A stretch of 45,239 bases of DNA from Candidatus Parcubacteria bacterium. Its GTDB lineage: Bacteria; Patescibacteriota; Patescibacteriia; CAIXNZ01. Shown here piece by piece: positions 4,331 through 41,577 of the stretch. Numbering within the stretch: position 1 is the first letter of the stretch; every line of letters begins with the position of its first letter. The stretch covers positions 1-45,239 of the forward strand of contig JAPLYF010000084.1 of the NCBI GenBank assembly GCA_026395675.1. The letters run 5' to 3'. The position numbers and the translations under genes were made by a program. The notes beneath the pieces are model-generated. The model saw nothing but the letters and a program-made list of their open reading frames with translations, was not told where the DNA came from and did no database searches.

Positions 4331-4353
4331 ATAATTTCATAATTCGGCCTTCG

Positions 4354-4388
4354 CCGACCGAAGTCCCGCCTTGCGGGACGAAGGTCGG
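4354..4388. repeat. REP-like compound palindrome (outer stem / 3x3 loop / GTCCCGC stem)
   Basis: ccgacc gaa gtcccgc ctt gcgggac gaa ggtcgg. Same architecture as 28293-28329 and 28564-28598. Confidence 0.7.
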
Positions 4389-4406
4389 AATTCGGCTTTC
4401 GGATTT

Positions 4407-4802: not shown

Positions 4803-4823
4803 ATTTTTTAATAATTGAAAATT

Positions 4824-4854
4824 GTCCCGCGAAGCGGGATGCCGCCACTGCGGC
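4824..4854 (-). repeat. twin GC hairpin element starting at the ATG at 4856
   Basis: Sense strand: atGCCGCagtgGCGGC a TCCCGC ttc GCGGGA c. Confidence 0.65.
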
Positions 4855-4881
4855 ATAAATTTAAAATTTAAAATTAACTGG

Positions 4882-5637: not shown

Positions 5638-6009
5638 TTAATCAATTAATTCCTTGCATTTGCTGCAGATTCTGACTTTTTGCCCTTTTTTCTCGCTGAG
5701 CTGGGGCAGTATTTTGCTTTTCACTCGAGCCGGCCGATTGCATTTTGGGCACATTATCATTAAATTGGAAATATTAAGAGGCGCCGGAAATTCAATTTTC
5801 TGGCCTTTTTCTCCTTGTCGCTTAGGTCTTAAATGTTTAATCGCCAAATTTATTCCTTCAACAGAAGCTTTATTGCGATCAAGAAAAATCTGCAAGACCT
5901 TGCCTTTTTTGCCTTTGTCCTTGCCAGCGATTACTTTTACTTTATCGCCTCTTTTAATTTTTCCGCCGTAGGCGGATCCCGCTTTGCGGGGCATATTCTT
6001 TTTTTTCAT
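5638..6009 (-). CDS. rplX: 50S ribosomal protein L24 (KOW domain, Cys4 C-terminal form)
   Basis: KIKRGDKVKVIAGKDKGKKGKV; CPKC...CSKC. The N-terminal 16 aa are encoded partly by a twin hairpin. Confidence 0.85.
   Translation of the reverse strand: MKKKNMPRKAGSAYGGKIKRGDKVKVIAGKDKGKKGKVLQIFLDRNKASVEGINLAIKHLRPKRQGEKGQKIEFPAPLNISNLMIMCPKCNRPARVKSKILPQLSEKKGQKVRICSKCKELID
5962..5991 (-). repeat. twin GC hairpin element immediately after the ATG at 5994
   Basis: Sense strand: ATG CCCCGC aaa GCGGG a TCCGCC tac GGCGGA. Confidence 0.65.
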
Positions 6010-7368: not shown

Positions 7369-8037
7369 TTATTTATTACTTTTATTAAAAACTTCTCCCT
7401 TGTAAATCCATACCTTAACACCGATTTTACCATAAAGTGTCTGGGCCGCTCCCCGGGCATAATCAATATCCGCGCGTAAAGTATGTAGAGGAATCATGCC
7501 TTCACTCAGAACTTCTCGTCTGGCAATGTCAGCGCCATTAAGCCGCCCTGAAACATAAACCTTAATTCCCTTAGCCCCGGCTCGGCTGACGCGCGATATC
7601 GCCTGTTTCATTATTCGGCGAAAGGGTATTCTTTTTTCCAAATCAGCAATCATATTATCCAAAACAATCTGGGCATTCAAATTTGGCTTATCAATTTCCA
7701 TGATGTTTATCTTAAGATTGAGTTTACCCGGAAGTTTTGTCTCTTTTTTATTAAAGATATTTGTTAATAATCCTTTTTTTAATTCCTCGATTCCGGTTCC
7801 TGCTCTGCCAATAATTACTCCGGGCCTAGCCGCATAAATAATAATATTAATATTTTCAGCTGATCTTTCAATCTCAATTTTAGCCAGGCCAGCCTCTTTA
7901 ATCCTATTCTTCAAAAATTTACGGACTACTACATCCTGCTTTAAATATAATTTAAAATTATTCTTAGAAAACCATTTGGAATCCCAGCTTTTGGTAACCC
8001 CGATTCTAAAAATTTTCGGATTGACTTTTTGTCCCAT
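7369..8037 (-). CDS. rpsC: 30S ribosomal protein S3
   Basis: [18 protein letters not shown]; KH domain region. Confidence 0.96.
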
Positions 8038-8066
8038 ATATACTCTGAATATTAGAAATTAGATAT

Positions 8067-8096
8067 TGGAAATTAGCTTAATGTTTCTAATTTCCA
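8067..8096 (-). other. 10-bp perfect hairpin in the rplV-rpsC spacer
   Basis: tggaaattag / ctaatttcca with a 10-nt loop and no U-run. Confidence 0.5.
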
Positions 8097-8121
8097 GTTT
8101 CAAATTCCCAATTAACCTGCT

Positions 8122-8637
8122 TTACGGCTGAAAATTTTCTTTATAAATCCCTTGGCTTTTTTCATTCTTTTCATGACCTTCCGGTTTGACTGCTTTTTCT
8201 TCTTTAATCCTTTCTGGCTTAATGATTTTTTCAATCTCTTTAGCTGATTTTACTTTAATTGGCTTTTCTTCTTTTTTGGCTTTCGCTTTTTTAACTTTGG
8301 TTGGAACCAATTCGTCTAAAATTATAACCAGATGACTCATCTTTTTCTGAATCGGCGTGGCTCTCCCATGCGCTCGCGGCTGCCATCTCTTAAGCATACC
8401 GGCCAGATCAGCCCTGATCTCTTTAATATATAAATTATCTTTTTTTAAATTAAAATTTTTTTCCGCATTAGCAATCGCCGAATTTAACAATTTTAAAACT
8501 GGCTGTTTCGCTGCTCGGCTGAGAAAATTTAACTGAGTAACAGCTTCTTCTGCTTTTAAACCCCGTATCAGATCAATAACCAGCCTAACCTTTTTGGGGG
8601 AAATTCTTAAATAACTTAATTTTGCTTTCACTTGCAT
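8122..8637 (-). CDS. rplV: 50S ribosomal protein L22 with K/E-rich C-terminal extension
   Basis: LRISPKKVRLVIDLIRG...RA.GRA core; about 55 extra C-terminal aa. Confidence 0.93.
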   Translation of the reverse strand: MQVKAKLSYLRISPKKVRLVIDLIRGLKAEEAVTQLNFLSRAAKQPVLKLLNSAIANAEKNFNLKKDNLYIKEIRADLAGMLKRWQPRAHGRATPIQKKMSHLVIILDELVPTKVKKAKAKKEEKPIKVKSAKEIEKIIKPERIKEEKAVKPEGHEKNEKSQGIYKENFQP

Positions 8638-17755: not shown

Positions 17756-18109
17756 TTATAAATTAGTGTTTAAGTTTACATCTTTAAATCGCTCTTCGTT
17801 CTTTTTTAACTTATTAAAAAATTCTTTCTCTAAATCAACATCCAACAAATAAGAAAGAATCATTGTGTAAATAAATACATCGGTTAGTTCTTCTTTTATT
17901 AAGCTAACGAAATCCTTTTGTCCATCAGTAGATAACCGATAATTTCTTACTTTTTCACGATAATATTTTTTAACTAAATTAGCGAGTTCCCCAGTTTCTC
18001 CAGCTAAACAAGTCATCAGATAAAGTAACCTATCTGGCGTCAGTTTTATTTCTCCGAAATGCATTTTATCAAAATCTTTCTGTTTCTCTATGATATCTTT
18101 TAAATCCAT
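17756..18109 (-). CDS. MazG-like all-alpha nucleotide pyrophosphohydrolase
   Basis: LAGETGELANLVKK ... EELTDVFIYTMILSYLLDVDLE ... N..R is the typical MazG/NTP-PPase helix pair. Confidence 0.6.
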   Translation of the reverse strand: MDLKDIIEKQKDFDKMHFGEIKLTPDRLLYLMTCLAGETGELANLVKKYYREKVRNYRLSTDGQKDFVSLIKEELTDVFIYTMILSYLLDVDLEKEFFNKLKKNEERFKDVNLNTNL

Positions 18110-18603: not shown

Positions 18604-19038
18604 TTAGGCAGCTTTCTTGGCTGCTTTACTCTTTTTAACTCCGTAAATCGATCGGCCTTTTTGCCTGCCTTCAACCCCCAAGGTGTCATAGCGGCCGCGG
18701 ACAATGTGATAACGCACACCAGGCAAATCCTTAACCCTGCCGCCGCGAATCATGACTATTGAGTGCTCTTGCAAATTGTGCCCTTCGCCTGGAATATAGG
18801 CAGTTACTTCCATGCCATTAGAGAGCCGGACTCTGGCAATCTTTCTTAGGGCTGAATTAGGTTTTTTAGGAGTAGTAGTTGTTACTTTTAAACAAACGCC
18901 TCTTTTATAGGGATTTCCTTTAACCAAATAATTTCTTTTTCTTTTCAAAGTATTAAAAACACTTTCCAAAGCAGGTGTTTTAGATTTTTTCCCCATTTTT
19001 TTTCTTCCTTTTTTAACTAGTTGACTGATCGTCGGCAT
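18604..19038 (-). CDS. rpsL: 30S ribosomal protein S12
   Basis: MPTISQL.KKGR; [36 protein letters not shown]. Confidence 0.97.
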
Positions 19039-19075: not shown

Positions 19076-19105
19076 TCAGCCAGTGGCTGATCAGCCTTTG
19101 GCTGA
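19076..19105 (-). repeat. twin hairpin element in the rpsL 5' UTR
   Basis: Sense strand: tcagcc aaa ggctga tcagcc act ggctga. Confidence 0.75.
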
Positions 19106-19137
19106 AAAAATAAAACTCTGTGTTTTATTGTAACTTT

Positions 19138-19166
19138 ATTCTACATTTAAGTTGCGAAAAAGTCAA
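19138..19166 (-). promoter_or_regulatory. str-operon promoter TTGACT-17-TAGAAT
   Basis: RC of 19161-19166 and 19138-19143. Confidence 0.55.
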
Positions 19167-19170
19167 GGAT

Positions 19171-19842
19171 TTAAAATAAACTATAAATCTTACCAAATAA
19201 ATTTATTATTAAAGTAAAGATAAAGCTAATTATGCCAATATTTAAAAAACTATCCATAATTATTAAAATCATCAAAATCATTGGGCCATTTTTCTCCAGA
19301 TAAAATTGAAGATGTTCGTATTTTGGCGGCAGGACGGCAAATAAAGCATGAGCACCATCAAGCGGCGGTATGGGAAGCAAATTAAAAATCATTAGCACCA
19401 GGTTATAAACAACCAAAAATGAAAGGAAAATTAAAAGCAAGTTGCCAGAAGCGCTAATAACCTGAAATGGGTCAGCAGGATTTAGGGAAGCAGGGGCGAT
19501 TAGTTTAAAAACAAGGGCAAAAATTATAATGCTTAATAAATTGGCGCCTGGTCCGGCCAAAGAAACCAGAGCCGGACCCCATTTTTGATCTTTTAAATTA
19601 TAATAATTGACTGGCACGGGCTTGCCCCAGCCAAAACCGATTGTCAAAAGTAAAATTGTGCCTAAAAAATCCAGGTGAGCCAAAGGATTTAAAGTTAAAC
19701 GACCAGCGGATTTGGCAGTATTATCTCCTAGGGCTGTAGCCGCTAAAGCATGGCAAAATTCATGGAAAGACAGGGCAATAAGCAAGGACAAAACAATGGG
19801 TAAAAAAATCAATGGTTCTTGAAATAATAGACTAATCAACAT
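19171..19842 (-). CDS. site-2 protease family (peptidase M50) membrane metalloprotease
   Basis: HEFCHALAA HExxH in a TM helix; polytopic; LLPIPPLDG motif. Confidence 0.8.
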   Translation of the reverse strand: MLISLLFQEPLIFLPIVLSLLIALSFHEFCHALAATALGDNTAKSAGRLTLNPLAHLDFLGTILLLTIGFGWGKPVPVNYYNLKDQKWGPALVSLAGPGANLLSIIIFALVFKLIAPASLNPADPFQVISASGNLLLIFLSFLVVYNLVLMIFNLLPIPPLDGAHALFAVLPPKYEHLQFYLEKNGPMILMILIIMDSFLNIGIISFIFTLIINLFGKIYSLF

Positions 19843-19850
19843 ATTATAAC

Positions 19851-19879
19851 TTGATTTTAAATGATTTATCTGTTAAACT
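19851..19879 (+). promoter_or_regulatory. promoter TTGATT-17-TAAACT for rpmB
   Basis: Read directly; would give an mRNA leader of about 155 nt. Confidence 0.4.
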
Positions 19880-19893
19880 GGGTATATTGATAA

Positions 19894-20013
19894 CTGAACT
19901 ACGAAATTTTAATCACGAAAACTCGCGAAATTATAAGTAGTGGTTCAATTTAAATTTTAGTGCCTTTCGTCCCAAAGGGATCCCTTCGGGATGAAAAAAT
20001 TTTCGTGGTTCAG
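19894..20013 (+). repeat. 120-nt TIR-bounded element (copy 1) in the rpmB leader
   Basis: Ends ctgaactacgaaa / tttcgtggttcag are complementary. The 48-nt core at 19965-20012 is identical to RC of 41468-41515. Confidence 0.8.
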
Positions 20014-20040
20014 ACCCACATTATTAATTATCATATCATT

Positions 20041-20220
20041 ATGTCAAGAACTTGTGAAATCTGCGGCCGCGGACCAATGACAGGCGCTAGCCGTAGTCAC
20101 TCCAATATAAAAACATTAAAAAGAAAATTTATAAACCTGCAAACCAAAAAGATTGATGGCAAGAAAATTAGAATTTGCACGAGTTGCTTAAAAACAAGGG
20201 TCAAAGCAGACCATACTTAA
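20041..20220 (+). CDS. rpmB: 50S ribosomal protein L28
   Basis: MSRTCEICGRGPMTGASRSHSN.KT.R.F..NLQ. The ORF-track start at 19960 lies inside the repeat. Confidence 0.9.
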   Translation: MSRTCEICGRGPMTGASRSHSNIKTLKRKFINLQTKKIDGKKIRICTSCLKTRVKADHT

Positions 20221-20295
20221 ATTCGCCTGATATTGAATTTACCATTATTATTAAAATAATATTCAGCAGCTTAATAATTATTAACTTCATACACT

Positions 20296-20448
20296 ATGGC
20301 CGATGTTCAAGCCTACTGCGTCAAATGTAAAGCTAAAAAAACGATGAAAGATGCTAAGGAAATCAAAATGAAAAATGGCAGACCAGCTGTAACAGGAACA
20401 TGTCCTGTCTGCGGTACCAAAATGTTTAGAATCGGCGCAGCCAAATAA
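20296..20448 (+). CDS. DUF5679-like Cys4 zinc-ribbon protein (50 aa)
   Basis: MADVQAYCVKCKAKKTMKDAKEIKMKNGRPAVTGTCPVCGTKMFRIGAAK. Replaces the antisense ORF 20287-20508. Confidence 0.75.
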   Translation: MADVQAYCVKCKAKKTMKDAKEIKMKNGRPAVTGTCPVCGTKMFRIGAAK

Positions 20449-20463
20449 ATGTTCTCTTATCCA

Positions 20464-20493
20464 AAAAACGCTCAATTTTGAGGGCGTTTTTTT
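20464..20493 (+). terminator. imperfect hairpin plus T7 run
   Basis: aacgctc aatttt gagggcg ttttttt. Confidence 0.4.
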
Positions 20494-20656
20494 GGTTGAT
20501 AAAATCAAAATTTTAATCTAAACTATATATAAGATTTTAAAATCAACGGGCTATAGCGCCCGCCGTCGCTAAAGCTATGGCGGGCAGGCAGCAAGAAGGC
20601 TAACTATACACGACGATAGCCAACTGCGGCTCGAATTTAAAAAATTTAATAATTTA

Positions 20657-20730
20657 CGGGCTGTAGCGCAGTTGGCTAGCGCGCATGCATGGGGTGCATG
20701 AGGTCGCGGGTTCAAGTCCCGCCAGCCCGA
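20657..20730 (+). tRNA. tRNA-Pro (anticodon GGG)
   Basis: Manual cloverleaf: cgggctg/cagcccg acceptor, gcgc D stem, catgc-atGGGgt-gcatg, gcggg-ttcaagt-cccgc. 74 nt, no encoded CCA. Confidence 0.88.
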
Positions 20731-20748
20731 CAATGATAAAAACGAGTT

Positions 20749-20778
20749 TCCGCCAAAGGCGGATCCGCCACTGGCGGA
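20749..20778 (+). repeat. twin hairpin element 19 nt after tRNA-Pro
   Basis: tccgcc aaa ggcgga tccgcc act ggcgga. Confidence 0.75.
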
Positions 20779-20804
20779 CAAATCCCACCGCCCCGAATAA
20801 CATT

Positions 20805-25423: not shown

Positions 25424-25780
25424 ATGGAAAAATTTAGGTTTTTAAAATGGCCAGTTTATAAAGATGCTAAAAAAATATTTGGTCTAATTTTGGAAACAGT
25501 TGAAAAATTCCCTAATCATATAAGATTCAGTATTGGCCAACAATTGATAAGAGCAGCTTTTTCAATAATTTTAAACATCGCCGAAGGTAGCGGCAGGAAA
25601 ACAGACAAAGAATTGAAAAGATATTTTGACATATCCCTTGGTTCGTGTTATGAATTATTAGCCTGTGCCGATACCTTGTCAGAACAAAATTTTATATCAC
25701 AAGAACTTTTTGAAAAAATCTATGTTTCAATTGATGAAATAACCAATCAACTCGGCGGTTTTAAAAAATCCATAAAATAG
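25424..25780 (+). CDS. four-helix-bundle protein (23S rRNA intervening-sequence / Avd-like family)
   Basis: QLIRAAFSIILNIAEGSGR.T.KE..RYF.ISLGSCYEL is the family signature. Confidence 0.8.
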   Translation: MEKFRFLKWPVYKDAKKIFGLILETVEKFPNHIRFSIGQQLIRAAFSIILNIAEGSGRKTDKELKRYFDISLGSCYELLACADTLSEQNFISQELFEKIYVSIDEITNQLGGFKKSIK

Positions 25781-25813: not shown

Positions 25814-25861
25814 CGGGGTATAGCGAAGTGGTATCGCGGTCCGACGTACGTCGGACAGATC
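25814..25861 (+). other. tRNA-like gene, 5' segment (acceptor, D arm, palindromic arm, variable region)
   Basis: cggggta ta gcga agtggta tcgc g gtccgacgtacgtcggac agatc. Confidence 0.6.
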
Positions 25862-25885: not shown

Positions 25886-26164
25886 ATGGAACAGGGATTT
25901 GTATACATTATACAAAGTCAAACATCAAACAATTATTATACTGGCTCAAGTGAAAATCCTACCAAAAGACTTTCCGAACATAATCGGGGAAAAGTAAAAT
26001 CCACCAGGAATAAAGGTCCCTGGATTTTAAAATTCACACAAGGTTTTCCTACCATAAAAGAGGCTAAGCAAATTGAATACATGATTAAGAAACTGAAAAG
26101 AAGGGATTATCTAGAAAGAATTATTCAAGATGGATATATTAAGATGAAAATAAACGGGCTGTAG
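25886..26164 (+). CDS. small GIY-YIG nuclease family protein (YhbQ/Slx1-like)
   Basis: GFVYIIQS....YYTGSS.N...RL.EHN.GK...T...GPW. The last 3 codons and the stop lie inside tRNA-Pro. Confidence 0.8.
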   Translation: MEQGFVYIIQSQTSNNYYTGSSENPTKRLSEHNRGKVKSTRNKGPWILKFTQGFPTIKEAKQIEYMIKKLKRRDYLERIIQDGYIKMKINGL

Positions 26165-26228: not shown

Positions 26229-26235
26229 CCCATAG

Positions 26236-26287
26236 CGCGGTCCGACGGACGTCGGACAGATCCCGAGTTCGAATCTCGGTACCCCGA
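26236..26287 (+). other. tRNA-like gene, 3' segment (palindromic arm, T arm, acceptor)
   Basis: cgcg gtccgacggacgtcggac agatc ccgag ttcgaat ctcgg taccccg a. The 3' acceptor is perfectly complementary to 25814-25820. Confidence 0.6.
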
Positions 26288-28292: not shown

Positions 28293-28329
28293 GCCCTCCG
28301 TAGTCCCGCTGTGCGGGACGTAGGAGGGC
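28293..28329. repeat. REP-like compound palindrome
   Basis: gccctcc gta gtcccgc tgt gcgggac gta ggagggc. Confidence 0.75.
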
Positions 28330-28556: not shown

Positions 28557-28563
28557 ATTTCAA

Positions 28564-28598
28564 TCCACCGAAGTCCCGCTCGGCGGGACGTAGGCGGA
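28564..28598. repeat. REP-like compound palindrome abutting the ndk stop codon
   Basis: tccacc gaa gtcccgc tcg gcgggac gta ggcgga. The outer stem closes fully only on the minus-strand RNA, through one G.U pair. Confidence 0.75.
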
Positions 28599-29183
28599 TT
28601 AAACACGCCAATTTGCATCATACAATATTGTGTCTCTGGCCAAATTGTAATCCCAAATCTCATCTTTTTTAAACCAAATAACAATCTCTTTTTCCGCCTC
28701 AGCCACAGTGCCTGAAGCATGGACCAAATTTCTAATTGCCCTATTGGCTAAATCAGCCATTTGATAAGTTTCAATCGGGCTCAAGTCGCCTCTGATTGTG
28801 CCAATAGCCGCGCTAAAAGGTTCAGTACTGCCGCAGATTTTGCGAACCAAAGAGACGGCTGCGTTGCCTTCCCAAACCATGGCGACCACAGGACCGGCAG
28901 TCATGAAATTTTTCAAGCGCTTTAAAACATCTTTGCCCACAGCAACCGGATCATTATTGGGCGGCTCCAGACCCTTTTCTTTATATGATTCAATAGCTTT
29001 GACACCGACTGTTTTGAGCCAGCTGGGATCAATAGTATAATGTTTTTCTACCATTTTATCATCTGCCTGGACTAATTTCATGCCTACTAATTTTAAGCCG
29101 CTGCGCTCCAAGCGGCAAATAATTTCGCCAATTAAATTTCTTTGCACGCCATCTGGCTTAATAATAACAAGGGTTTTTTCCAT
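28599..29183 (-). CDS. ndk: nucleoside diphosphate kinase, long form with an internal insertion
   Basis: LVIIKPDGVQRNLIGEII.R.E..G; NLVHASG. 194 aa versus about 140-150 typical. Confidence 0.88.
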   Translation of the reverse strand: MEKTLVIIKPDGVQRNLIGEIICRLERSGLKLVGMKLVQADDKMVEKHYTIDPSWLKTVGVKAIESYKEKGLEPPNNDPVAVGKDVLKRLKNFMTAGPVVAMVWEGNAAVSLVRKICGSTEPFSAAIGTIRGDLSPIETYQMADLANRAIRNLVHASGTVAEAEKEIVIWFKKDEIWDYNLARDTILYDANWRV

Positions 29184-41468: not shown

Positions 41469-41572
41469 GAACCACGAAAATTTTTTCATCCCGAAGGGAT
41501 CCCTTTGGGACGAAATACACTAAATAAAGTTGAGTCCTTTTCGTGTAATTTCGTGCCAATATTTCGTGGTTC
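41469..41572 (-). repeat. 104-nt TIR-bounded element (copy 2) in the trxA-trxB spacer
   Basis: Ends gaaccacgaaa / tttcgtggttc. Same 48-nt core as copy 1, in the same orientation relative to the downstream gene. Confidence 0.8.
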
Positions 41573-41577
41573 CGTTA

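What the first reader, a model, noticed from the sequence alone, without database searches (positions are those of the whole stretch)
19076..20778. Twin-hairpin element family with fully compensatory substitutions
The copy at 19076-19105 (minus-strand sense, rpsL 5' UTR) reads tcAgcc aaa ggcTga tcAgcc act ggcTga. The copy at 20749-20778 (plus strand, after tRNA-Pro) reads tcCgcc aaa ggcGga tcCgcc act ggcGga. That is 26/30 identity, and all four differences form two compensatory base-pair swaps, one in each hairpin. The loops (AAA, ACU) and the junction are unchanged. Shorter or variant copies exist at 19970-19991 and 41489-41510 (tccc aaa ggga tccc ttc ggga), at 5962-5991 and at 4824-4854. Most copies have a GGATCC core at the hairpin junction. 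Preserved structure, preserved loops and 5' UTR or start-codon locations argue for a functional RNA or DNA structural module rather than chance palindromes.
Basis: seen in the sequence. Interest (0 to 1): 0.7.

Follow-up and report, generated by a model that had tools for sequence, protein, structure and literature searches.

The report
Tiny twin-hairpin insertion element family
The two 30-base "twin hairpins" are real, but they belong to a short GC-rich palindromic insertion sequence found in many bacterial phyla, in leaders and in frame inside essential proteins, and not to a regulatory RNA specific to these genes.

Summary
19076-19105 (minus sense) and 20749-20778 are 26/30 identical, and their four differences keep both hairpins paired. 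All six listed twin hairpins exist, against 0.28 expected by chance.

Most are Patescibacteria; Kiritimatiellia, Ignavibacteria, Omnitrophota, Gammaproteobacteria MAGs and others also appear. The consensus is (TTT)TCCGCC-NRA-GGCGGA-TCCGCC-TYN-GGCGGA(AAA). The variable stem pair covaries within each hairpin (107 and 108 of 110) and independently between the two.

Copies come and go between relatives. They insert as exact 30-nt blocks without target duplication, for example after the ATG of rplX and inside a tRNA T-loop. One copy is flipped in place in a relative. About a third of copies lie inside genes, in both orientations, and 38 of 52 are in the frame that reads S-A-x-G-G-S-A-x-G-G.

My best reading (0.65) is a non-autonomous, selfish palindromic mini-element, comparable to REP/REPIN, Rickettsia palindromic elements and mitochondrial GC clusters or double-hairpin elements. 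The mobilising enzyme is unknown. I found no description of it in the literature searched.

The parts
19076..19105 (-). Canonical 30-nt twin-hairpin element, A:T stem variant (TCAGCC AAA GGCTGA TCAGCC ACT GGCTGA), in the rpsL leader. It sits directly after a conserved AU-rich hairpin and T-run.
   Evidence: 48.9 bits, E 1e-13. The identical 30-mer is at the same place in relatives L159 and L166. It is absent from L001-L005.
20749..20778 (+). Canonical 30-nt twin-hairpin element, C:G stem variant. It is inserted in the T-loop (GTT|CAA) of a duplicated fragment of the tRNA-Pro 3' end.
   Evidence: 52.9 bits, E 7e-15. L166 has GGGTT|TCCGCC AGA GGCGGA TCCGCC TTT GGCGGA|CAAGTCCCGCCAGCCCGA, which is the same site with the element in the opposite orientation.
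20779..20796 (+). Degenerate copy of the last 18 nt of tRNA-Pro (caaatcccaccgccccga), the right flank of the element above.
5962..5991 (-). Twin hairpin inside the rplX (L24) coding sequence, codons 2-11 after the second ATG (M-PRKAGSAYGG-KIKRGDKV). The second hairpin is canonical (TCCGCC TAC GGCGGA). The first has the stem CCCGC/GCGGG.
   Evidence: 22.1 bits. Empty site in L129 (ATG|AAAATTAAA). Canonical 30-mer at this site in L130. The sister species L127 has CCCGCC AGA GGCGGG as its first hairpin.
4825..4856 (-). 32-nt twin hairpin with other stems (ATGCCGC AGTG GCGGCAT / CCCGC TTC GCGGG) in the rpsN-rpsH spacer. It brings an in-frame upstream ATG.
   Evidence: Identical in L127, absent from L129 (aaattta|caatatc). 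Not recognised by model R1, so it has the same architecture but family membership is unproven.
19971..19993 (+). 23-nt short twin hairpin (t)CCC AAA GGGA TCCC TTC GGGA(tg), nested in MITE-like copy A upstream of rpmB.
   Evidence: A clean 23-nt insertion relative to L001 (tttcgt|aaaaaa). R1 gives only 9 bits.
41487..41509 (-). The same 23-nt short twin hairpin, nested in MITE-like copy B between trxA and trxB.
   Evidence: A 48-nt stretch is identical to copy A.
19896..20011 (+). MITE-like repeat copy A with terminal inverted repeats GAACtACGAAAtttt / aaaaTTTCGTGGTTC. It hosts the short twin hairpin.
   Evidence: The whole element is absent from the orthologous site in L166.
41469..41573 (-). 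MITE-like repeat copy B, with the same terminal repeats.
4350..4390 (-). 41-nt single long hairpin of a related GC-rich family (CCGACC TTC GTCCCGC AAG GCGGGAC TTC GGTCGG). It is inserted into the loop of a small gcc-gaa-ggc hairpin in the rpsH-rplF spacer.
   Evidence: Absent from sister species L127.

Best explanation
The twin hairpins are copies of a very small (30 bp), non-autonomous, selfish palindromic insertion element, and not a gene-specific regulatory RNA. Each element is two abutting 15-nt GC-rich hairpin modules, TC-N-GCC / 3-nt loop / GGC-N'-GA.

Shown:
- Copies are gained, lost and flipped between close relatives.
- They insert as exact blocks without target-site duplication, at T-rich|A-rich junctions.
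- The family is spread over many phyla.
- Because the element is 10 codons long and one frame on either strand reads as a flexible S-A-x-G-G-S-A-x-G-G peptide, it survives in leaders, spacers and protein termini or loops.

Inferred:
- The hairpins form on single-stranded DNA and are what a trans-acting enzyme recognises. The type is unknown; a HUH/Y1-type enzyme, as for REP-RAYT or IS200/IS605, is the obvious candidate.
- Only copies with two intact stems keep propagating.
- That filter, together with distinct master sub-families (C:G, A:T, T:A stems) and intra-strand template switching that corrects quasi-palindromes, produces the 'fully compensatory' pattern.

On this reading the window copies are passengers in the rpsL leader, in a tRNA-fragment T-loop and in the L24 N-terminus.
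For: 1. Indels at orthologous sites.
- The rpsL leader copy is present in the window, L159 and L166 but absent in L001-L005.
- rplX: the empty allele is ATG|AAAATTAAA (L129). The filled allele is ATG|30-mer|AAAATTAAA (L130).
- The rpsN-rpsH twin hairpin is absent in L129, and a 41-nt hairpin is absent in L127.
- A 23-nt copy is absent in L001.

2. Distribution. My calculation gives about 0.5 chance matches for 20 fixed bases in 596 Gb at equal base frequencies.

3. Flip. The copy after tRNA-Pro in L166 is the reverse complement of the window copy, apart from 1 nt, at the same T-loop position.

4. Coding copies. 38 of 52 copies in open frames of at least 200 codons are in the SAxGGSAxGG frame. 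Orientations are 16 of one, 8 of the other and 14 symmetric. Both orientations also occur in the AAA/ACT subtype, for example in AlaRS. 41% lie within 40 codons of a protein end, against 20% expected.

5. Decay. The L24 N-terminal copy degrades in more distant relatives (SAKGGSAFGG, then PARGGSAYGG, NKSAYSG, KPSFGK).

6. Covariation follows the twin register. The variable pair is complementary in 107 and 108 of 110, with 56 double changes, and 0 of 500 shuffles reach this. In the long-hairpin register the same positions are unpaired in 45 and 51 of 110. The two hairpins therefore vary independently, like modules.

7. Compensatory changes are documented as common in mobile REPINs (PMC3116915).

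8. The window carries other small insertions: a MITE-like repeat and the GTCCCGC hairpins.
Against: - No mobilising enzyme was found. There is none in the window. There is no Y1/RAYT-like ORF in 1.36 Mb of fetched loci, although the queries were recalled from memory and the loci cover under 1% of each genome.
- Transposition was not observed. Only indels between lineages were seen, and these could also arise by recombination or deletion.
- The rpsL copy is 30/30 identical across relatives of only 79-85% identity, and the rpsN-rpsH copy is 32/32 identical at about 90% identity. That hints at constraint or homogenisation.
- About 10% of copies have flanking direct repeats of 6-11 nt, against 1.3% in controls. 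A no-duplication mechanism does not explain this.
- Identity of the stem sequence across phyla is unusual for REP-like repeats, which are lineage-specific.
- Only 16 hits were found in 2.9 million viral contigs, and none in PLSDB plasmids or INPHARED phages, so no vector for spread is evident.
Confidence: 0.65

Rival explanations
1. Functional RNA structural module. The transcribed twin hairpin in 5' leaders acts as an mRNA stabiliser, a processing site, a protein-binding site or an attenuator for ribosomal-protein and neighbouring genes.
For: - In the window, 5 of 6 copies read AAA-loop-first in the sense direction, and all lie in leaders, spacers or at a start codon.
- The rpsL copy is 30/30 conserved in L159 and L166.
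- Its second hairpin plus AUUUUUAAUU is called terminator-like.
- The folds are more stable than shuffles, with z from -2.7 to -4.6.
Against: - The element is absent from the same leader in L001-L005 although the promoter and leader hairpin are conserved.
- The same element sits inside ORFs of unrelated essential genes, in both orientations, in many phyla.
- It is flipped in place in L166.
- There is no Rfam match.
- Stem sequence, not only pairing, is conserved, while the loops are the free part.
- The L24 copy decays in relatives.
Confidence: 0.12
2. Double-stranded or cruciform DNA site for a conserved host protein, for example a nucleoid, segregation, repair or methylation-linked factor acting at the GATC-centred palindrome. 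New sites would be added by selection.
For: - Stem sequence is conserved across phyla.
- The core is the palindrome GGC-N-GATC-N'-GCC.
- T-rich and A-rich flanks extend the palindrome.
Against: - GATC was fixed by my own search pattern. Degenerate copies lack it (4825-4856; L124 copies).
- The two halves vary independently, so the central 12-mer is often not a palindrome (ATCG and CGAT combinations).
- Covariation follows intra-strand hairpins.
- Insertion as whole 30-nt blocks into coding sequence is not how binding sites normally arise.
Confidence: 0.08
3. A mutational by-product with no dedicated enzyme. GC-rich hairpins would be created and extended locally by fold-back or template-switch synthesis and copied between loci by microhomology-mediated gene conversion. 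Genomes that lack hairpin-cleaving nucleases would tolerate them.
For: - All four arms change in concert in the two window copies.
- Two adjacent base pairs are swapped in the orthologous rplX copy between the window and L127.
- One copy is flipped in place.
- A hairpin is nested in another hairpin's loop.
- Some copies have flanking direct repeats of variable length.
- Other GC hairpins have variable outer stems.
Against: - The same stem sequence and the loop rules (loop 1 ends in A, loop 2 starts with T) recur in distant phyla. That argues for descent from shared copies, not de novo origin.
- Loop 2 is not the complement of loop 1 beyond what composition predicts, as simple fold-back copying would require.
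Confidence: 0.13
4. Chance palindromes in an AT-rich genome.
For: None beyond the short length of the stems.
Against: The window has 6 twin hairpins against 0.275 expected and a maximum of 2 in 200 shuffles. A model built from other genomes hits the window copies at E 1e-13 to 7e-15.
Confidence: 0.01

Closest known systems
REP / BIME / REPIN elements mobilised by RAYT (TnpA-REP) transposases
   Same: - Short GC-rich imperfect palindromes that occur as doublets.
- Predicted hairpins in ssDNA or mRNA.
- Dispersed in many copies.
- Compensatory changes across the hairpin are common (PMC3116915).
- No target duplication.
   Different: - REPs are almost exclusively extragenic and lineage-specific, and REPIN arms are separated by a spacer. 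Here the two hairpins abut and the whole unit is only 30 nt.
- A third of copies here are inside genes.
- The same stem sequence occurs in many phyla.
- No RAYT was found, and no conserved GTAG-type 5' tetranucleotide is evident.
Rickettsia palindromic elements (RPE) and PARCEL-type palindromic coding repeats
   Same: Selfish palindromic DNA inserted in frame into protein-coding genes, including essential ones, and tolerated as extra peptide segments. The reading is similar on both strands (PMC2996958 and PMC1779305 were listed; the details are from my own knowledge).
   Different: RPEs are about 100-150 bp and restricted to one genus. This element is 30 bp (10 codons), encodes a Gly/Ser/Ala linker, and spans phyla.
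Mitochondrial GC clusters, double-hairpin elements (Allomyces and other fungi) and Neurospora PstI palindromes
   Same: Small GC-rich palindromic or double-hairpin mobile sequences in AT-rich compact genomes. They are found in spacers, next to tRNAs and sometimes in coding regions (PMC4478555 and PMC7218506 were listed; the details are from my own knowledge).
   Different: Those are organellar and eukaryotic, with different sequences. There is no evidence of common descent, so this is an analogy of form and behaviour only.
IS200/IS605-derived palindrome-associated transposable elements
   Same: Two sub-terminal hairpins recognised on single-stranded DNA. Insertion has no target duplication and occurs next to a short preferred sequence.
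   Different: Those elements need guide and cleavage sequences outside the hairpins, are at least about 70-100 nt long and insert in one orientation relative to the target. Here the insert is exactly the two hairpins. No TnpA was found.

Membership tests
REP/REPIN-RAYT | Copies essentially confined to extragenic space | tested here: not met
   38 of 116 copies lie in frame in open frames of at least 200 codons. The rplX copy is coding.
REP/REPIN-RAYT | Associated single-copy RAYT (Y1 HUH) gene, usually flanked by REPs | tested here: inconclusive
   There is none in the window. phmmer found no hit in 7,498 ORFs of the fetched loci, but the queries were recalled from memory and whole genomes were not available.
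REP/REPIN-RAYT | [quoted passage not shown] | tested here: not met
   The two hairpins abut with no spacer. Covariation supports two separate hairpins and not one long one.
REP/REPIN-RAYT | Lineage-specific sequence that is vertically inherited | tested here: not met
   The same stems occur in Patescibacteria, the PVC group, Ignavibacteria, Omnitrophota, Pseudomonadota and other MAGs.
Classical MITE | Terminal inverted repeats plus a target-site duplication of fixed length | tested here: not met
   Clean empty and filled sites show no duplication. Only about 10% of copies have flanking repeats, and their length varies from 5 to 11 nt.
Rickettsia palindromic elements | In-frame insertion of a palindromic repeat into ORFs with the host protein kept | tested here: met
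   Frame bias of 38/52. Examples are L24, PheT-like, AlaRS-like and UvrC N-termini. This is a shared behaviour; there is no sequence relationship.
Rickettsia palindromic elements | About 100-150 bp element restricted to Rickettsia | tested here: not met
   The element is 30 nt and occurs in many phyla.
Intrinsic terminator | GC-rich hairpin followed by a U-run on the transcribed strand | tested here: not met
   The family consensus has T-rich sequence 5' and A-rich sequence 3' of the element on either strand. Only the rpsL copy happens to be followed by ATTTTT.
Described structured RNA (Rfam) | Match to a curated covariance model | tested here: not met
   Only the two tRNAs reach the gathering score. 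Nothing meaningful appears at E up to 10 around the copies.
CRISPR array | Regularly spaced direct repeats with unique spacers | tested here: not met
   Copies are dispersed as single units, and no arrays appear in the window or the loci.

The most novel reading that the evidence does not exclude
This is an undescribed 30-bp twin-hairpin mobile element, among the smallest bacterial mobile DNAs. It is shared across many phyla of mostly uncultivated bacteria and propagated by an unidentified hairpin-specific enzyme. It repeatedly writes a ten-residue S-A-x-G-G-S-A-x-G-G linker into essential proteins (L24, aminoacyl-tRNA synthetases, UvrC) and into tRNA-like sequences. Some copies, such as the conserved A-[FY]-G-G-K N-terminal extension of L24, may since have been exapted.
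Probability: 0.4. Interest if true: 0.72.

Novelty: new variant of a known kind. Interest (0 to 1): 0.55.

Why it matters
If confirmed, three things follow.

- Compact Patescibacteria genomes, and many other uncultivated lineages, share one ultra-short palindromic parasite that can cross phylum boundaries. That raises the question of which enzyme and which vector move it.
- It gives a natural example of a "both-strands-readable" 10-codon insert that proteins tolerate, and a source of N-terminal and loop extensions in ribosomal proteins and aminoacyl-tRNA synthetases.
- It is a practical warning for annotation and RNA-motif discovery. These copies create false start codons (rpsH) and spurious small ORFs (PPxADPPxAE, RQRRIRLWR). 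They also show "covarying" hairpins that mimic structured RNAs.

Tried and rejected
- Exact look-up of the window's S12 protein: not on record. I worked through homologues instead.
- Rfam at the gathering score and at E up to 10: only tRNAs.
- One long hairpin as the conserved fold: rejected. It is the energy minimum for identical-stem copies, but the variable positions are unpaired in 45 and 51 of 110 copies in that register.
- Loop 1 and loop 2 complementary to each other, making a perfect 30-nt palindrome: rejected as a rule. Complementarity is no higher than composition predicts. The apparent AGA/TTT and AAA/TCT classes are one element read on opposite strands.
- Fixed target-site duplication: rejected.
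- Phage or plasmid vector: only 16 viral contigs matched, and there were no hits in INPHARED or PLSDB.
- Neighbouring transposase: none in the window, none around single hairpins in viral contig L132, and no Y1-like ORF in any fetched locus.
- Literature: seven searches by sequence, peptide and concept found no description. They returned only analogues.
- I first read the rpsL difference as an insertion in the window lineage. L159 and L166 show the copy is older and that L001 lost it.
Full report
**1. The observation**

On the minus strand, 19105-19076 is TCAGCC AAA GGCTGA TCAGCC ACT GGCTGA. On the plus strand, 20749-20778 is TCCGCC AAA GGCGGA TCCGCC ACT GGCGGA. They are 26/30 identical, and the four differences are the third stem position of all four arms.

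rpsL is 18604-19038 (-). A promoter-like TTGACT-17-TAGAAT lies at 19166-19138 and is conserved in relatives. The first copy is therefore in the rpsL leader. The second copy lies 17 nt after tRNA-Pro(GGG).

The other four listed twin hairpins are present. A mechanical search for adjacent perfect GC-rich hairpins finds exactly these six. The mean in 200 dinucleotide shuffles is 0.275, with a maximum of 2. The organism is a Patescibacteria (CPR) bacterium: the S12 and L24 homologues are all of that group.

**2. It is not a conserved leader element**

The closest relative I could fetch is L001-L003 and L127 (about 90% nucleotide identity; S12 99%). It keeps the rpsL promoter and the AU-rich leader hairpin plus T-run, but has no twin hairpin there. 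L004 and L005 do not have it either. Relatives L159 and L166 (79-85% identity) do carry the identical 30-mer at that site. The copy is therefore old and was lost in the L001 lineage.

- Upstream of rpmB, the window has a clean 23-nt insertion (CCCAAAGGGATCCCTTCGGGATG) relative to L001.
- In the spc operon, the 32-nt twin hairpin between rpsN and rpsH is shared with L127 but absent from L129.
- A 41-nt GC hairpin between rpsH and rplF is present only in the window.

**3. The family is far larger than the window**

I scanned one genome per species (185,579 species) for TCNGCCNNNGGCNGATCNGCCNNNGGCNGA. The scan stopped at its 120-locus limit. By my calculation, 20 fixed bases in 596 Gb give about 0.5 chance matches at equal base frequencies, and fewer at 35-50% GC.

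Apart from a few GC-rich actinomycete hits that look like chance, the hits are MAGs of 31-60% GC:
- many Patescibacteria lineages;
- Kiritimatiellia, Lentisphaerae, Verrucomicrobiota and Planctomycetes;
- Omnitrophota;
- Ignavibacteria and Bacteroidota;
- Gammaproteobacteria and Bdellovibrionales MAGs;
- Elusimicrobia, Zixibacteria and others.

The consensus is TTT-TCCGCC-NRA-GGCGGA-TCCGCC-TYN-GGCGGA-AAA. The window's AAA/ACT loop subtype occurs in 27 further metagenome contigs. A covariance model built only from the foreign copies hits the window copies at 52.9, 48.9 and 22.1 bits. The short 'tccc' copies score marginally (9 bits) and the 4825 copy is not found.

**4. What covaries**

In 110 non-redundant copies, the one stem position left free by the search is complementary within hairpin 1 in 107 and within hairpin 2 in 108. 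The pair types are C:G, A:U, U:A and G:C, with 56 double changes, and 0 of 500 shuffles reach this. The two hairpins vary independently; the combinations CGCG, ATCG, CGAT, ATAT and TACG all occur.

In the alternative single long hairpin, the same positions are unpaired in 45 and 51 of 110 copies. The long hairpin is nevertheless the energy minimum for the two identical-stem window copies. The loops do not pair with each other beyond what composition predicts. The two commonest loop classes, AAA/TCT and AGA/TTT, are one element read on opposite strands.

All other stem positions were fixed by my search pattern, so their conservation is not evidence of anything.

**5. Coding copies**

Of 52 copies inside open frames of at least 200 codons, 38 are in the frame that reads S-A-x-G-G-S-A-x-G-G. 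Both orientations occur: 16, 8 and 14 symmetric. The AAA/ACT subtype gives SAKGGSATGG or SASGGSAFGG. Hosts include PheT-like, ValS-like and AlaS-like proteins, the UvrC N-terminus, membrane glycosyltransferases and T9SS C-terminal domains. 41% lie within 40 codons of a protein end, against about 20% expected.

The window's own rplX copy is of this kind:
- the window has M-PRKAGSAYGG-KIKRGDKV;
- the sister species has M-PARGGSAYGG-K;
- one relative has the canonical M-SAKGGSAFGG-K;
- more distant relatives keep only decayed versions (NKSAYSGK, SKAIFGGK, KPSFGKK);
- most homologues, including one 91% identical, lack it.

**6. Boundaries**

L129 has aatatATG|AAAATTAAA. L130 has ATG|TCCGCCAAAGGCGGATCCGCCTTCGGCGGA|AAAATTAAA. 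That is an exact 30-nt insert with no duplication.

After tRNA-Pro the element sits between GTT and CAA of the T-loop of a duplicated tRNA 3' fragment. In L166 it occupies the same position in the opposite orientation.

Flanks are T-rich on the left (TTT in 41 of 116) and A-rich on the right (AAA in 33 of 116). A minority of copies have flanking direct repeats of 6-11 nt, 10% against 1.3% in controls. I cannot explain this.

Between the window and L127, the first hairpin of the rplX copy differs by two adjacent swapped base pairs (CCCGC/GCGGG against CCGCC/GGCGG). Pairing is retained.

**7. Other small insertions in the window**

The two short copies lie in a MITE-like repeat of about 115 nt with terminal inverted repeats (19896-20011 and 41469-41573). 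This repeat is absent from the L166 site, and its L001 copy lacks the twin hairpin. A second hairpin family, GTCCCGC-nnn-GCGGGAC with 3x3 internal loops and variable outer stems, has four copies in the window and only seven in the other 1.3 Mb examined.

**8. Explanation**

The data fit a selfish, non-autonomous palindromic mini-element (confidence 0.65).
- Shown: gain, loss and flipping of copies, exact blocks without duplication, spread across phyla, and a frame filter in genes.
- Inferred: recognition of the two hairpins on single-stranded DNA by a trans-acting enzyme, and maintenance of pairing by propagation competence, sub-family structure and quasi-palindrome correction.

No enzyme was found. 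Only 16 viral contigs carry the element, and no plasmid or phage records do.

The rivals are:
- a leader RNA module (0.12), favoured by the sense orientation of the window copies and by 30/30 conservation in L159 and L166;
- a protein-binding DNA site (0.08);
- an enzyme-free mutational by-product (0.13);
- chance (0.01).

**9. Comparison and novelty**

The element behaves like REP/REPIN elements, Rickettsia palindromic elements and mitochondrial GC clusters or double-hairpin elements. It fails the defining tests of REP/REPIN (extragenic, spacer-separated, lineage-specific, RAYT-linked) and of classical MITEs (fixed target duplication). Compensatory change across the hairpin is reported as common in REPINs (PMC3116915), so it is not evidence for an RNA function. 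Seven literature searches found no description of this element. I rate it a new variant of a known kind, with moderate interest.

Noticed in passing
window 19896-20011 (+) and 41469-41573 (-): A MITE-like repeat of about 115 nt with terminal inverted repeats GAAC(C/T)ACGAAAtttt / aaaaTTTCGTGGTTC and internal CACGAAA motifs. It lies upstream of rpmB and between trxA and trxB. The whole element is missing from the orthologous rpmB site in L166. A 48-nt stretch, including the nested short twin hairpin, is identical between the two window copies.
   Followed up: partly
window 4350-4390, 28293-28329, 28563-28599 (also 4825-4839): A second GC-rich hairpin family: core GTCCCGC-nnn-GCGGGAC flanked by symmetric 3-nt internal loops (GAA/GTA/TTC) and an outer stem that differs between copies but stays complementary. 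The 4350-4390 copy is a 41-nt insertion relative to sister species L127, placed in the loop of a small gcc-gaa-ggc hairpin. The family has 4 copies in this window and 7 in the other 1.3 Mb examined.
   Followed up: partly
window 25814-25861 and 26231-26287: Two halves of a tRNA-like gene whose anticodon arm is an 18-nt perfect palindrome (GTCCGACGTACGTCGGAC / GTCCGACGGACGTCGGAC). Joined, ARAGORN calls a 73-nt 'tRNA-???' with a 6-nt anticodon loop. Between the halves lie a GIY-YIG ORF (25886-26164) and tRNA-Pro(CGG). By my reading of its sequence, not a family search, a four-helix-bundle '23S IVS protein'-like ORF (25424-25780) lies just upstream. This looks like a cassette inserted into, or duplicating, a tRNA-like gene.
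   Followed up: partly
window 20547-20585 and 20779-20796; L001 about 7700-8500: Partial copies of tRNA-Pro flank the real gene. There is a 5' fragment (cgggctatagcgc) fused to a GC hairpin upstream, and a degenerate 3' fragment downstream. In L001 the same region holds two 3'-end repeats, each with different twin hairpins inside its T-loop, plus a GrpB gene. This looks like an integration or rearrangement hot spot.
   Followed up: partly
window 5962-6009 (rplX N-terminus); proteins P0121-P0146: The N-terminal extension of L24 that derives from the element keeps the motif A-[FY]-G-G-K in relatives only 63-75% identical, while its first half decays. The second half may have been exapted.
   Followed up: no
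window 4806-4856 (rpsH start): The twin hairpin brings an in-frame ATG 48 nt upstream of the conserved MITDPIAD start of S8. In L127 the S8 gene is called with 146 residues, against 131 in L129. This is probably an annotation artefact caused by the insertion.
   Followed up: no
window 19110-19128 (-) and relatives: An AU-rich hairpin (ataaaac-acaga-gttttat) followed by a T-run is conserved in the rpsL leader of all relatives examined, with a variable loop. It may be a leader attenuator or terminator-like element independent of the twin hairpin.
   Followed up: no
L016 4587 and 6408; L031, L050, L062, L083, L132, L141: In some genomes the 30-mer is embedded in longer repeats. In a Kiritimatiellia MAG the flanks are near-identical (a few mismatches) over more than 150 nt. 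In other loci the element sits between short heptamer direct repeats (GGAAATT, GAAAGTA, AAATCTT) that recur in different phyla.
   Followed up: no
window 17756-18109 (-): A small ORF lies between rpsG and fusA inside the str operon. Its counterpart in L004 has a weak MazG family hit.
   Followed up: no
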